From: Gemmatimonas sp.
Lineage (GTDB): Bacteria; Gemmatimonadota; Gemmatimonadetes; Gemmatimonadales; Gemmatimonadaceae
NCBI GenBank assembly: GCA_965279375.1
Contig: OZ257156.1
Coordinates: forward strand, 4,768,001 to 4,832,000
DNA length: 64,000 bases
Reading direction: 5' to 3'
A program made the position numbers. This document shows positions 45,001 to 51,000 of the stretch, piece after piece; position 1 is the first letter of the stretch, and every line of letters begins with the position of its first letter.

Positions 45001-48000
45001 ACTTCCGCACGCGGTCAGCCCAGCGCACGCTGGCGCAGCCGATCGAGAGCGAGCAGTCGGTCGCCCGGGCAGCGCGCACGCTGCTGCGGGCCCTGCGCAA
45101 GCGCCGGCGGGTGGGCGTGCGGTTGCTGGGAATCGGGCTGTCGCACTTCGAGGATGACGTCGTGGTTCCGCCGCAGCTCGGCCTCTTCCCCGCTCCGCCG
45201 CCGGTACCCAATCCCGACGAGCCGGTGGAGGGAGACCGGGACCGCGCCTTGACCCGGGCACTGGATCGGATCCGGAACCGTTATGGACAGGGCGCAATCG
45301 TCCCCGCTCGGCTGGTGGATCCGTCAAACGATCCGGGGCCACGGGTCGAGGAGTAGTCCGCCGCTTCCGAGTCGTCCGCAGGTCGCTTACCTTGCGTCCG
45401 GTCGAGTCCATCAGGGCTCAGTCTCCTTCTCGCCGGCATTTGCCGGTCGCGCTTTCGACGGGGTTTCCTCATGAGCAGTGCTGCGTACGATCCGAACAAG
45501 CAGGGCTGGGGCTTCGCCAGCGTCGTCGTCATCATGACGCTCGGCTTGCTCTACACCGCCTATTCGATCCACTCGAGCACCTACATTCACCCGCGCGATC
45601 CCATGGCCGTGCAGGTCTATCATGAGCGCGACGCCAAGGGTGGCGAGAGCCATGAAGCGCCCAAGGGTGAAGCCGCCGCCGCACCCAAGGCCGAGCACTA
45701 AGCCCAGTACCGTTCCGCCAAACGCCGCGTGGCCCCGAGCCGCGCGGCGTTTTTGTTTGCCTGGTCAAATCATAGATATTATCTATTGTTTTTCTCACTA
45801 CATTCAATTTGTGGATGGCACGGAAGTCGCTCAGCTTGCGGATCGAATGGCGCGTGCACACGGCGCGCGCAGATCACGCCGAGCCACGGATGACCATGCT
45901 CTCAACGCTGCAGGCCAACCTGCTCTCCCCGATTCCGCTCGCGTTCGCGCTCGGCGTGATCGCGCGATCGATCAAGAGCGAGTTCTCGCTCCCGAAGGAT
46001 CTCTATGCATCGCTGTCGATCTACCTGTTGTTTGCGCTCGGGCTCAAGGGCGGCGCCGAGCTCGCGCATGCAACCTTCGACAGCATCGCACGGCCCGCTG
46101 CGGCGACGCTTTTGCTCGGCTGCATCACGCCGATTTCGGCCTTCCTGATCCTGCGCTCGGTCGGACGCTTCAGCAGCGCGGACTCGGCGGGCATCGCGGC
46201 ACATTACGGCTCGGTGAGCGCGGTGACGTTCATTGCGGCGCAGCAGTTCGTGCAGCGCGTGGGCGCTCCCCTCGAATCTTTCATGCCCACGCTGCTCACG
46301 CTGCTGGAGAGTCCCGGCATTCACATCGCGCTGGCGATCGGTGCCATTCAGCGCAACCGTGCGTTAGGTCGGAGTGGCGGTGCCGAAACCAGTTCCATCT
46401 GGCAGGTGCTGCACGAAGTGCTGACCGGTCGCACGATGGTGCTGCTCGTGGGTGGCCTGCTGGTGGGCTACCTGATGGGCGAGAGCGGTTGGAAAGCCGT
46501 CAGTCCGTTCTTCGACAGCGGGTTCAAGGGTGCGCTGATGCTCTTCCTGCTGGAGATGGGCATCGTGGCCGGCTCCCGCCTTGGCGACCTGCGCAAGGTC
46601 GGACCGTTTCTGATGGGCTTCGGCATCGCCGTTCCGCTGATGCACGGCGCACTGGGCGTGGTGCTGGGACACTGGGCCGGACTCTCCGTGGGTGGCTGCA
46701 CGGTGCTGGCCGCGATGGCCGCGAGTGCCAGCTACATCGCCGCACCGCCTGCCGTGCGACTCACGCTGCCCGAGGCGAATCCCACGTACTCGTTGACGGC
46801 GGCACTCGCCATCACCTTCCCGTTCAACATTCTGGCGGGAATTCCGATCTACTATCGCATCGCTCAGGCGCTCGCCTGACGGGAGACAACGCACATGCAC
46901 ACCCCCTCGTTGTCCGCCTCCGCCATGAACGCGCCCACGACTGCGCACCCTCACACGTATCCGCTCAAGCTGGTGACCATCATCGCCGAGCCCGTGCTGG
47001 AGACGCGGCTCACCTCCGAACTGCGCAAGCTGGGCGCGACCGGCTGGACGATCGTGGACGGGCGCGGTGAAGGCTCGCGCGGCATTCACGCGGCAGAGAT
47101 TCCCGGCGTGAACATCCGGATCGAGACGATCGTCTCGCCCGACGTCGCATCGCGCATCGTGTCGCACATGGCCACGCACTACTTCACCGACTACGAAGTC
47201 ATCGCGTACGTAAGCGACGTCGCGGTGGTACGCAGCGAGAAGTACGTGGTCGCGCCCAAGGAGTCCCGCTGATGTGCGCGCCCGTGACGCCGGCAGCGAC
47301 TCGCCGTGCGGCGCTTGGCCGCCTCGCGCGCATCGGTGCAGGCGCGCTCGCGGCCACGCTTGTGCCGAGCGCACACGAGTCGCACGCGCAGGGGTCACCG
47401 CGAACCGAGCCGATTCCTGAAACGCCGGCGGAGGCGCTCGATGCCTTGTATCGTGGAAATCGCCGATTCGCCGAGGGAAAGGTGACCACGCCCCACAGGA
47501 ACATGGCGCGCCTGAAGGAGGTGGCCGCTGGGCAGAAGCCGTTCGCTGCGTTCCTTGGCTGCGCGGACTCGCGCGTTCCCGTGGAGATCGTGTTCGACCA
47601 GGGCTTCGGCGACGTGTTCGTCACGCGCATCGCGGGAAACGTGGCCGATCCGGCGATCATCGGCAGCCTTGAGTTCGGCATCGAAGTGCTGGGTGCCAAG
47701 GTGCTGTATGTGCTGGGCCACTCTCGCTGCGGCGCCGTGGCGGCAACGCTCACCGGCGATGCGGTGCCTGGACAGATCTCCACGTTGTATCAGCACATTC
47801 GTCGCGCGGCGAAGGAGTCGCACGGCAATCTGTCGACGGCGATTCGCCGCAATGTGCAGATTCAGGCGGAGATCCTGAGTGAGGCGTCGCCGGTGATTGC
47901 GAAACGGCTCGCGTCGAAGCAACTCATCATCGCCGGCGGCGTGTACGATCTCGATAGCGGACTGGTGTCGCCCATCGCGTTGCCGAGCCGCTGACTCGCC

Positions 48001-51000
48001 AGAAAGGAATACCATGGCTACACCGACACTCAACACGCTCAACTACCAGCACCTGCTGTACTTCTGGGTAATCGCGCGCGAGGGAAGCATCGCGCGTGCG
48101 ACGACGGTGCTCAACCTGACGCAGCCAACGATCAGCACGCAGCTCAAGACGCTCGAGCGGTCGCTGGGAGCCGCGCTTTTCGAGCGACGTGGCCGCGGCC
48201 TCGTGTTGACGGACATCGGCCAGCTCGTGTTTCGCTATGCCGACGAGATGTTTCGCACGGGTCGCGAACTCACGCAGGCGCTGGCGCGCGGTAGTGGTGC
48301 CATGCCGACGCGCCTGGTGGTCGGGATTTCGGACTCGCTCCCCAAGCTGACCACGTGGAGACTATTGCAGCCCGCATTGGCGATAACGCCGCGTTTCCGA
48401 CTGACCTGCCGCATCGACAAGACGGAGCGACTGGTGGCCGACCTTGCCTCGCACGCGCTGGACGTGGTGCTGGCGGATACGCCAGTGTCGCCGTCGTCAC
48501 CCGTGCGCACCTTCAACCATCTGCTCGGCGAGTGCGGCGTGACCATCTTCGGAGCTGAGTCGCTGGCGAAGCGCTATCGGCGTGGCTTTCCCGAATCGCT
48601 GGATGGCGCACCGTTCGTACTACAGACGGAGAACACGGCCTTGCGTCGCAGCTTTGATGCGTGGTGCATCGCACACGACGTGCGCCCCGAGATCACCTGC
48701 GAGGTGGAGGACGTCGCACTGCTGCAGGTGTTTGGACAGGAGGGGATGGGACTCTTCGCCGCTCCCACCGTGGTGGAGGCGCAGATTCGCCGGCAGTACA
48801 GTGTGAGGGTGGTTGGGCGACTGCCCGATGTCCGCGAGCGCTTCTACGCGATCAGCGTAGAGCGCCAACTCGTGCATCCGGGCGTCGTCGCACTATCAGA
48901 GGCCGCGCGGACGCGGCTGTTCACCTGACGACGAAGCAGACCCGCTACTTCGCGACCGGGAGCGTGAACCAGAATTCGCTTCCTTCGTTCACGGTGCTCT
49001 CCACGCCAATCTCGCCACCGTGCGCTTCCACGATGCCCTTGGCGATGAACAACCCAAGCCCCGATCCCGCGCGCAGCAGACGCGGCGCCTGCCAATAGCG
49101 CTCGAAGAGGCGCGGAAGATCCTCCGTGGCAATCCCCGGCCCGGTGTCCTTCACTGAAATGCGAACGACGCCGTTCAGTGGTTCGACGGTCAGCCGGACT
49201 TCACCACCGTGCGGCGTGAAGCGCACCGCGTTGGCGAGGAGATTCGAGAAGACCTGCAGCACCCGCCCACGATCGGCGATGATTGGCGGTGTATCGGGCT
49301 TGATCACGCGCACGAAGCGGATCGCCGCGTCTTCCATCACGTGCTCGAACAGATCGGCAGATTCGCACGCGAGCTCCACCACGTCCACGCGCCGCTGCTC
49401 GACGCGCAAACGTCCGGCTGAAATGCGCGACACGTCCTGCAGATCCTGAATCAGGCCGTCGGCCTGACGTGCGGCAGCGCGAATCGATTCCACCTGCTCG
49501 CGCTCCATCAGCCCGCGCGACTCCCCGTCGTCGCGACTGAGTACGGCACCGGTCAGCATGACGATGGCATTGACTGGATTGCGCAAATCATGCGAGACGA
49601 TGGCGAGCATCTCCTCACGCTCACGCACCGCCTGTCGCGCCGCCTGATAGAGCCGCGCGTTCTCCAGCGCGAGTGCGGCCAGACCGGCGTACTGATCCGC
49701 CAACTGCACCTCTTCGACCGCATGCACGGCGCCAGCGCGCGTACGAACGAGATGCAGTACGCCGATGGCGCGTCCGCCCGCGCGCAACGGTACGAGCAAC
49801 ACGGCAGACGCGCCCAACGACTCGGCGCGCGCGCGCTCGCCCGCGTCGTGGAAGTTGGCCTGCATCCACGCACTGATGTCGGTGATGCGTTGCGCTTCGG
49901 ACTCGTGCGCCACGCGACTGCCGCTGGCCGGATGCGGATCGGAGTCGAGCGGCAACTCGGTGCGCGTCATGAATCCGGCGGTGATCTCCTGCCGGATCGG
50001 ATCCATGTGCGTCGCGGCCGCACGGCGAATACCACCATCGGGCGAGAGCAGTTCGAGCATGCTCCACTCGCCGAGCAAGGGCACGGGAAGCTCGGTGACC
50101 GTGGCCATCGTGGACTCGAGGTCGAGCGATGCCGCCAACACCCAGCCGGCCGTGGCGAGCAAGCGTTGGCGCTCTTCGCTCCGCCGCCGTTCGCTCACGT
50201 CACGCAACGTCACCATGAAGGTGCGCTCGCCATCGATCGTTACGCGTGCGATCGACGCCTCAGCGGGGAATTCCGCACCTGAACGTCGCAAACCCGCGAT
50301 CTCGGCGCGCGTCGCCATCGGTCGCGCATCGGAGGGGCCTTCTGCGAATGTTCGAACGTGTCCGCGATGAATCGCTCGCGCCCCCATCGGCAGCAGGCGA
50401 TCGAGCGCCTGTCCGAGCATTTCGGTTTCCGTCCATCCGAAAATCTGTTCGGCGCCGCGGTTAAACCGGACGATGCGGAAGTCGTTATCGAGCGCGATGA
50501 TGGCATCGGCGGCGATGTCGACGATCGCGGCGAGGGCCGCATGCGAATGCGGGATATCGCGAAATGAATGTCTTTGCTCAGTCATGACATGGGGAGCATA
50601 GCACGTCAGGCGTGTAAGTTTCCAGCCATGCGCTTGTCTTCGATTCCTCGACTGCCTTTGGCAGCGGCGGGCTTTCTCGCGACGGGCGCCGTGATTGCGC
50701 TCGTTCCCGACGCCGCCGAATGGCGCGACCGGATTTGGCTTACCGGACTCGTGCTCACTGGCGTGCCGGTGTCCTGGGCAACACTGCGCGGGATGCTCAA
50801 GGGCAATTTCGCCTCTGACGTCGTGGCGATGCTGGCCATCGCCGGCGCGATCGCACTGGGACAGCCGCTGGCCGGCCTGGTCGTGGTCTTGATGCAAACC
50901 GGCGGAGAAGCGCTCGAGGCGTACGCCGTTACCCGTGCCAGCAGCGCGGTCGCCGCGCTCGAAGCGGACGCGCCGCGAATTGCGCATCGCCTGACGGGCG

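What a model noticed while it worked through the whole genome (the two positions that open the first line are those of the whole stretch)
45471..48928. sbtA-sbtB-carbonic anhydrase-LysR bicarbonate-uptake operon tracks phototrophy in Gemmatimonas
A small membrane protein, an SbtA-family transporter, a PII-like SbtB, a beta-carbonic anhydrase with a Tat-like leader and a LysR regulator form a conserved operon. Within the genus it occurs almost only in genomes with photosynthetic reaction centres, suggesting inorganic-carbon uptake tied to aerobic anoxygenic phototrophy.
Evidence so far: sbtA is in 30 of 86 congeners and pufL/M in 56 of 86; sbtA is in 28 of 56 puf-positive and 2 of 30 puf-negative genomes (Fisher p 3.7e-5, call 152). 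In 19 relative loci sbtA-sbtB-LysR are in order in all 19, the small gene in 18 and the anhydrase in 12. Sequences in call 108.
(Added by a program. Inside this text positions count along the whole contig: contig position 4,768,001 is position 1 of the stretch shown here. "Call 12" and the like, gene names such as g00115 and contig names such as C1 are that model's own, and its searches are not shown. The text may have been shortened before it was handed on; [...] marks where a part breaks off. The agent that wrote the report below was given it as the finding of a first reader that could run no searches.)

Follow-up and report, generated by a model that had tools for sequence, protein, structure and literature searches.

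The report
Bicarbonate-uptake operon of phototrophic Gemmatimonas
Light-harvesting Gemmatimonas bacteria, most of which cannot fix carbon, tend to keep this four-gene bicarbonate-import unit or a rival CO2 pump, probably because living on light leaves them short of respiratory CO2, though sunlit lake habitat may explain part of the link.

Summary
The operon is real but has four genes, not five: sbtA, sbtB, beta-carbonic anhydrase, NhaR-like lysR, behind a conserved LysR-type box. The small ORF is a core gene (82 of 87 genomes) cut off by a terminator. The counts reproduce (sbtA in 28 of 56 puf+, 2 of 30 puf-), survive tree-based tests (Pagel LR 27, 0 of 106 simulations) and recur outside the genus (10 of 42 vs 8 of 248).

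New: phototrophs lacking SbtA nearly all carry the DAB pump (either system in 55 of 57). The anhydrase has a Tat-like leader beside sbtA (16 of 16) and none where sbtA is gone (0 of 6). Published G. phototrophica tables show the operon up 2.7-fold on high light while DAB falls.

Against: photolyase tracks puf with the same raw p. The closest outside relatives are mostly non-phototroph lineages. The operon swings tenfold in a calcium experiment with no light treatment. Two of four known bicarbonate ligands differ.

Only 1 of 32 sbtA genomes (this one) has true RuBisCO, so supply is biosynthetic. The sbtA-phototrophy bias is already published for rhodopsin Flavobacteria.

The parts
45471..45701 (+). 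76-aa single-helix membrane protein; core gene of the genus flanking the operon, not part of it
   Evidence: 82 of 87 genomes; no Pfam, NCBIfam or PDB match; follows dinB wherever dinB could be read
45720..45757 (+). intrinsic-terminator-like hairpin and T run ending the small gene's transcript
   Evidence: 14-pair stem; similar hairpin plus T run visible in relatives; RNA contigs of three studies end in the T run in locus L007 (weak hint, no DNA run laid)
45770..45811 (+). conserved LysR-type operator: dyad CAT[AT]G-N7-C[AT]AT plus a second half-site CATTC[AG]ATTTG
   Evidence: 22 of 22 loci examined, leave-one-out scores 22-53 bits; best site in the genome 37.5 vs next 12.1; binding by the LysR is inferred
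45890..46879 (+). sbtA, SbtA-family transporter, 329 aa
   Evidence: PF05982 372 bits; model pLDDT 91, TM 0.83 to 7CYE at 26% identity
46895..47272 (+). sbtB, PII-like regulator, 125 aa; no C-terminal cysteine loop
   Evidence: PF00543; TTHA0516 E 4e-31, SbtB7001 E 8e-11
47272..47994 (+). beta-carbonic anhydrase, 240 aa, with twin-arginine leader (TRRAAL plus hydrophobic stretch); start overlaps the sbtB stop
   Evidence: PF00484; CADSR and HxxCG zinc motifs; TIGR01409 over cut-off in 3 of 9 leader-bearing proteins but no hit in this one; tatC present
48014..48928 (+). NhaR-like LysR regulator, 304 aa (start moved from 47897 to the ATG behind a ribosome-binding site)
   Evidence: PF00126 and PF03466; PRK11062 208.8 bits, cut-off 219

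Best explanation
An autoregulated operon that tops up cytoplasmic bicarbonate for ordinary biosynthetic carboxylases (PEP carboxylase, acetyl-CoA carboxylase, carbamoyl-phosphate synthase), and in this one genome possibly also form II RuBisCO. SbtA imports HCO3- with an ion gradient (inferred from family and fold). SbtB closes it according to adenylate state (inferred from cyanobacteria). The Tat-exported anhydrase turns periplasmic and leaking CO2 into HCO3- without draining the internal pool (inferred). The LysR switches the unit on from the box (inferred). Phototrophs keep it, or the alternative DAB pump, because photophosphorylation replaces respiration and so cuts internal CO2 production while biosynthesis continues. 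The distribution is shown; the cause is inferred.
For: puf-sbtA dependence: Pagel LR 27.0 on 87 genomes, 25.1 on an rpoB-only tree of 68, 14.6 on 48 high-quality genomes; 0 of 106 bootstrap replicates and 0 of 3000 simulations reach it. Ten independent pairs: 3-6 go the same way, 0 the other. Outside the genus: 10 of 42 vs 8 of 248. SbtA or DabA in 55 of 57 puf+ vs 12 of 30 puf-; neither in 2, where 10.4 are expected if independent. Neighbouring anhydrase with leader in 16 of 16 read beside sbtA, 0 of 6 without sbtA. PMC11406998 supplement: sbtA, sbtB, lysR log2 +1.46, +1.42, +1.25 (FDR 5e-5, 2.5e-5, 2e-4) 2 h after a shift to 200 umol photons, dabA -1.41. Its text reports respiratory and TCA genes, 2-oxoacid oxidoreductase and formate dehydrogenase down in light. 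PEPC present, no pyruvate carboxylase over cut-off. puf still predicts sbtA after adjusting for photolyase and completeness (LR 13.5, no tree).
Against: The pair sign test is not significant (median p 0.125). Photolyase is in 40 of 57 vs 7 of 30, p 3.9e-5, and both puf- sbtA genomes have it. Eight puf- genomes outside the genus have sbtA and no rhodopsin. The nearest outside relatives with sbtA-sbtB-CA are Planctomycetota. 14 of 42 puf+ genomes outside the genus have neither system. DabA alone does not track puf on the tree (LR 3.9), and the union is not significant on the 48 high-quality genomes (LR 5.8). Light induction is transient, absent for sbtA at 100 umol, and absent at 10% O2 with about 200 ppm CO2; ppc falls (-0.67), accC and carB do not rise. 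The operon swings 11-13-fold in the calcium experiment with no light treatment (PMC9862903). Two of four reported HCO3- ligands differ. A Labrenzia SbtA-like protein showed no uptake in E. coli (PMC4275256).
Confidence: 0.55

Rival explanations
1. Habitat, not phototrophy: it is a bicarbonate transporter for dilute, neutral-to-alkaline, CO2-poor fresh water, where phototrophs also live; SbtA versus DAB reflects pH niche.
For: Photolyase shows the same raw association, and sbtA tracks photolyase on the tree (LR 17.2). RuBisCO-like form IV is also puf-restricted, 13 of 57 vs 0 of 30. Close homologues occur in Planctomycetota, Verrucomicrobiota, Myxococcota and Bdellovibrionota. pufLM is confined to fresh, waste and soda waters and sediments (PMC10581226). 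DAC and SbtA sort by pH in autotrophs (PMC10880623).
Against: puf-sbtA (LR 27) is stronger than puf-photolyase (10.7). Among photolyase-negative genomes sbtA is in 7 of 17 puf+ vs 0 of 23 puf- (CMH p 0.002). The operon responds to light within one strain.
Confidence: 0.27
2. Ion or pH homeostasis: the NhaR-like regulator senses sodium, chloride or cytoplasmic alkalinisation (as from light-driven proton pumping), and SbtA moves bicarbonate as buffer, or another anion.
For: Regulator closest to NhaR. Operon 10-12-fold lower 2 h after CaCl2 or MgCl2 addition than in unamended culture. SbtA2 is chloride-dependent (PMC13187645). Tyr140, Asp325 and Ser327 are replaced. Carboxylase transcripts do not rise in light.
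Against: An anhydrase and an SbtB are operon partners across phyla. SbtA and DAB avoid each other within phototrophs, 10 of 35 vs 20 of 22, as substitutes for carbon supply would. The operator is not found elsewhere in the genome, so not at nhaA.
Confidence: 0.11
3. A carbon-concentrating step for Calvin-cycle fixation.
For: This genome has cbbM-cbbF-cbbP at C1:608498-612016, each over its NCBIfam cut-off, plus pufLM.
Against: Only 1 of 32 sbtA genomes has form I/II RuBisCO, and the other 5 such genomes lack sbtA. No operator copy lies near cbbM.
Confidence: 0.04
4. Artefact of kinship and incomplete assemblies.
For: 39 of 87 genomes miss the quality bar; only about 10 changes of puf state on the tree.
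Against: puf- genomes are no less complete (median 93 vs 90). The link holds in high-quality genomes and in tree-based tests, and recurs in other genera.
Confidence: 0.03

Closest known systems
Cyanobacterial SbtA1-SbtB1 (Synechocystis Slr1512/Slr1513; PDB 7CYE, 7CYF)
   Same: Fold (TM 0.83), adjacent PII-like gene, Ser114 and Ser324 kept
   Different: 26-27% identity; Tyr140, Asp325, Ser327 replaced; SbtB lacks the C-terminal disulphide motif and has a shorter T-loop; anhydrase and own LysR in the operon; host mostly without RuBisCO
SbtA2-SbtB2 of alpha-cyanobacteria (PMC13187645; abstract, passages and part 1 of the supplement read)
   Same: Equally distant (about 25%) from SbtA1, paired with sbtB; three Synechococcus members transport HCO3- in E. 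coli
   Different: Direct comparison not possible because the alignment is a picture; two Prochlorococcus members were inactive
sbtA bias in proteorhodopsin Flavobacteriia (PMC5932025; passages read)
   Same: sbtA is the only anaplerotic-carbon gene enriched in light-using heterotrophs
   Different: Rhodopsin, marine, another phylum; here bacteriochlorophyll, fresh water, with a DAB alternative, tree-based tests and transcript data
Sbt in the aerobic anoxygenic phototroph 'Ca. Phycosocius' (PMC10008586; passage read)
   Same: Same function proposed: bicarbonate for anaplerosis without RuBisCO
   Different: An annotation remark in one clade, no comparative test in the passage read
DAB/MpsAB versus carbonic anhydrase (PMC6689103, PMC10880623; passages read)
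   Same: Interchangeable bicarbonate supplies with one-or-the-other distribution; transporter with external versus internal anhydrase
   Different: Here both states occur at one chromosomal slot, with the anhydrase leader present or absent according to sbtA
E. coli NhaR
   Same: Closest NCBIfam model for the regulator
   Different: Below cut-off; sits in a carbon-uptake operon, and its box is not at nhaA

Membership tests
SbtA family (PF05982) | profile match over cut-off, full length | tested here: met
   372 bits vs 27, positions 1-308 of 308
SbtA family (PF05982) | SbtA fold | tested here: met
   top five Foldseek hits are SbtA, TM 0.72-0.83
SbtA family (PF05982) | adjacent PII-like sbtB | tested here: met
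SbtA family (PF05982) | measured HCO3- transport and coupling ion | not testable with these tools
   needs an uptake assay
SbtA1 subfamily | HCO3- ligands Ser114, Tyr140, Ser324, Ser327 (PMC8352866, whole text read) | tested here: not met
   Ser110 and Ser281 kept and invariant in 55 homologues; Leu136 and Ala284 replace the others
SbtA1 subfamily | Na+ site of main-chain oxygens at the TM4/TM9 crossover | tested here: inconclusive
   YGS for FGA and conserved SAS; main-chain contacts cannot be judged from sequence
SbtA2 subfamily | groups with the tested WH5701, RCC307, CB0205 proteins | not testable with these tools
   sequences not readable in the supplement
SbtB | PII fold with GEGSR nucleotide motif | tested here: met
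SbtB | C-terminal CGPxGC redox hairpin (in some members only) | tested here: not met
   no cysteine in the protein
beta-carbonic anhydrase | Cys-x-Asp-x-Arg and His-x-x-Cys zinc motifs | tested here: met
Tat substrate | twin-arginine leader with hydrophobic region, Tat machinery | tested here: inconclusive
   motif in 16 of 16; TIGR01409 over cut-off in 3 of 9, no hit for the window protein; tatC present; export not shown
NhaR equivalog (PRK11062) | score over cut-off | tested here: not met
   208.8 vs 219
Carboxysome-based carbon-concentrating mechanism | carboxylating RuBisCO co-occurring with the transporter | tested here: not met
   1 of 32 sbtA genomes
Carboxysome-based carbon-concentrating mechanism | carboxysome shell genes | not tested
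   no search run

The most novel reading that the evidence does not exclude
Photoheterotrophy itself creates an inorganic-carbon dependence. Phototrophic Gemmatimonas almost obligately carry an energised uptake system, cells with both shift from DAB to SbtA on illumination, and one anhydrase is moved between periplasm and cytoplasm in evolution by losing its Tat leader whenever the transporter is lost. With the Flavobacteria result this would make SbtA a convergent companion of light energy in heterotrophs.
Probability: 0.3. Interest if true: 0.72.

Novelty: new variant of a known kind. Interest (0 to 1): 0.5.

Why it matters
Aerobic anoxygenic phototrophs are described as not fixing inorganic carbon (PMC8547001), and how much bicarbonate they take up in light bears on lake carbon budgets. 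This operon gives a named transporter, operator and cultured test strain for asking whether light raises bicarbonate dependence. It also offers a natural comparison of external versus internal anhydrase, and an SbtA with altered substrate-site residues for the search for simple bicarbonate pumps.

Tried and rejected
Small ORF as operon member: rejected. In the published tables the gene upstream of sbtA has log CPM 9.8-10.4 against 4.2-6.2 for sbtA and does not follow its induction.
Link to the Calvin cycle as the general explanation: rejected.
Rhodopsin as light source in puf- sbtA genomes: 0 of 8. acsF as sign of a missed photosynthesis cluster: absent in G028, G061, G321, G110; G061 is 90% complete with a puf+ sister, so it stays uncertain.
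A distant SbtA in the two exceptions G084 and G085: none by the family profile.
Mrp and NhaA as pH proxies: uninformative in 5 genomes each, 0 of 5 and 5 of 5.
A wider regulon: no second operator in this genome or in DAB loci (the first script failed to seed and was discarded).
Independent origins of leader loss: best trees show three or four lineages, but one origin is not rejected (AU p 0.14).
Function of the small protein: no lead.
RNA contig depths were not used to rank genes.
No earlier scan findings. No complex prediction was run.
Literature: 0 papers hold Gemmatimonas with SbtA. Searches listed none that describes this operon, judged from titles and abstract starts. 'Bicarbonate' is absent from the main text of PMC10581226, PMC8547001, PMC9862903 and PMC11406998 (listing). 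Subscription journals are not covered.
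Full report
Anatomy. The window holds sbtA (45890-46879), sbtB (46895-47272), a beta-carbonic anhydrase whose start overlaps the sbtB stop (47272-47994) and a LysR regulator (48014-48928), between dinB plus a small ORF and a convergent histidine kinase. SbtA scores 372 bits on PF05982, and its model matches Synechocystis SbtA with TM 0.83 at 26% identity. Of the four bicarbonate ligands reported in PMC8352866 (whole text read), Ser114 and Ser324 are kept; Tyr140 and Ser327 are Leu136 and Ala284, and Asp325 is Tyr282. SbtB is closest to Thermus TTHA0516 and has no cysteine loop. The regulator is NhaR-like but under the cut-off.

The small ORF is not in the operon. It is in 82 of 87 genus genomes, and a terminator-like hairpin follows it. 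A 42-bp LysR-type box at 45770-45811 is found in 22 of 22 loci examined and only once in this genome (37.5 bits, next 12.1). In locus L007, RNA contigs of three studies end in the terminator's T run, and in two of them the next contig starts at the end of the box; this is a weak hint, as no DNA run was laid. Of 81 genomes whose slot behind the small gene was read, 22 hold sbtA there, 5 the anhydrase alone, 1 anhydrase plus lysR, 4 lysR alone and 49 none of these in the stretch read. This looks like repeated decay of one cassette. Five genomes carry another arrangement, a divergent lysR with CA-sbtA-sbtB.

The association. With G000 and the G086 fragment it is 30 of 57 vs 2 of 30; G035's weak match was not counted. 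Among high-quality genomes it is 17 of 28 vs 2 of 20. On a tree of all 87 genomes (rpoB, dinB, small gene) Pagel's LR is 27.0. On rpoB alone (68 genomes), which avoids genes next to the cassette, it is 25.1; on 48 high-quality genomes 14.6. None of 106 bootstrap replicates and none of 3000 simulations reached the observed values. Ten independent pairs go the same way 3-6 times and never the other way, but the sign test is not significant (median p 0.125). In a sample of 290 family genomes outside the genus, sbtA is in 10 of 42 puf+ and 8 of 248 puf- (counted by hand; Fisher p 2.7e-5, no tree correction).

SbtA has a substitute. I searched DabA as the known alternative. Among 57 phototrophs, 20 have SbtA only, 25 DabA only, 10 both and 2 neither, against 10.4 expected with neither. 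Of 30 non-phototrophs, 12 have either; one of these (G026) has only a truncated dabA with a stop. One of the two exceptions, G085, has the extra anhydrase. Outside the genus either system is in 28 of 42 vs 19 of 248, so 14 phototrophs have neither. DabA alone does not track puf on the genus tree (LR 3.9). The union does on 87 and 68 genomes (23.1, 16.7) but not on the 48 best (5.8). Beta-anhydrases are near universal (84 of 87), and this genome also has a SulP-anhydrase pair with a leaderless enzyme.

The anhydrase leader follows sbtA. All 11 intact slot anhydrases beside sbtA and all 5 of the second arrangement have a twin-arginine motif and hydrophobic stretch. G018's frameshifted copy was left out and G059's was not read. 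All 6 without sbtA start at the catalytic domain with intact zinc motifs; G085 has an RR match only in upstream frame with no start codon before it and little hydrophobicity. TIGR01409 passes its cut-off in 3 of 9 leader-bearing proteins, not in the window's own. This fits the known logic that a cytoplasmic anhydrase would drain a pumped bicarbonate pool (PMC10880623, passages). But a deletion of sbtAB could clip the leader mechanically, and a single origin is not rejected (AU p 0.14).

What uses the bicarbonate. This genome has cbbM-cbbF-cbbP, but it is the only one of 32 sbtA genomes with form I/II RuBisCO; 10 have the form IV protein. PEP carboxylase is in 4 of 5 genomes tested, including non-phototrophs; pyruvate carboxylase passed the cut-off in none. 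So demand is ordinary and the difference is on the supply side.

Expression. Supplement rows of PMC11406998 (parts 1-3 of 6 of the text read) for G. phototrophica AP64 show a gene run annotated hypothetical, bicarbonate permease, P-II, LysR, PAS protein, which I take as the same cassette from order and annotation. The three operon genes move together: +1.46, +1.42, +1.25 log2 at 2 h in 200 umol photons, back to baseline by 8 h, not significant at 100 umol in that series. In a second series at 100 umol in air the values are +0.42 (n.s.), +0.82, +1.05, with no induction at 10% O2. dabA falls by 0.85-1.41 at 2 h, ppc by 0.67 at high light, malic enzyme by 0.2-0.9; accC and carB do not rise. The text reports respiration and TCA genes down in light. 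In PMC9862903 (passages and supplement rows), whose cultures are described as dark-grown, sbtA and sbtB rise 11-13-fold and lysR about 6-fold at 2 h, and again at 24 h, in unamended low-calcium cultures, and not at 2 h after CaCl2 or MgCl2. Light is thus a real cue but neither the only nor the largest one. The lack of induction under gas with about 200 ppm CO2 argues against simple low-CO2 sensing.

Habitat confound. Photolyase, a light-exposure gene unrelated to carbon, is in 40 of 57 vs 7 of 30, p 3.9e-5, the same raw p as sbtA; on the tree its LR is 10.7. Both puf- sbtA genomes have photolyase. puf still predicts sbtA after stratifying (CMH p 0.002). The best 80 of at least 557 relatives include 19 Planctomycetota, 12 with the anhydrase and 13 with sbtB, 16 Verrucomicrobiota and 20 Pseudomonadota; that most of these lineages are non-phototrophic is my own knowledge. 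Habitat data for the genus genomes were not available, so this rival stays open.

Comparison and verdict. It works like SbtA-SbtB and belongs to the family by profile and fold, but not to SbtA1. SbtA2 membership could not be tested because the alignment is a picture in the supplement. Function outside cyanobacteria is mixed: active in autotrophic Proteobacteria (PMC10880623), inactive for a Labrenzia protein (PMC4275256, passages). The idea has precedent: sbtA is the only anaplerotic gene biased to proteorhodopsin Flavobacteriia (PMC5932025), and Sbt was proposed for anaplerosis in 'Ca. Phycosocius' (PMC10008586). I found no paper on this operon in Gemmatimonas (searches listed under Tried and rejected). 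What is new is the tree-tested link in bacteriochlorophyll heterotrophs, the SbtA-or-DAB coverage, the leader switch and the operator. Verdict: new variant of a known kind, interest 0.5.

Noticed in passing
G000:C1:608498-612016 (L052): Form II RuBisCO, FBPase and phosphoribulokinase in one run, in a single-contig genome that also has pufLM: a candidate mixotrophic Gemmatimonas. G074 has the same run and pufLM. Form II in wastewater Gemmatimonadota is published (PMC10581226).
   Followed up: partly
window 45471-45701: Core, apparently Gemmatimonadota-specific 76-aa membrane protein of no known family; the matching gene is highly expressed in published tables.
   Followed up: partly
G000:C1:796657-798141 (L288): SulP 77% identical to the SulP heading a DAB operon in G004, but with no dabA in this genome: possibly a relic DAB locus.
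   Followed up: no
L196-L204: Two DAB operon types: dabB-dabA, in some genomes beside a divergent LysR (best model NhaR, 123 bits, in G007), and sulP-dabA-dabB-like-unknown.
   Followed up: partly
G026:C58:5009-6001: puf-negative genome nested among phototrophs whose dabA is truncated with a stop: both traits lost.
   Followed up: no
L205 (G013:C69:27000-40000): Tandem duplicated sbtA of a longer type, each followed by an uncharacterised gene, behind a lysR; third-position GC near 97%.
   Followed up: no
L055 (G048:C313): Form I-type cbbL-cbbS run with phosphoribulokinase at low third-position GC on a short contig; transfer or mis-binning.
   Followed up: no
genus survey: RuBisCO-like form IV protein only in phototrophs (13 of 57 vs 0 of 30; tree LR 10.4).
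   Followed up: partly
G000:C1:4512848-4513321: The photolyase match holds one TGA; possibly broken.
   Followed up: no
window 50568-52532: Heavy-metal-type P-type ATPase just beyond the histidine kinase.
   Followed up: no
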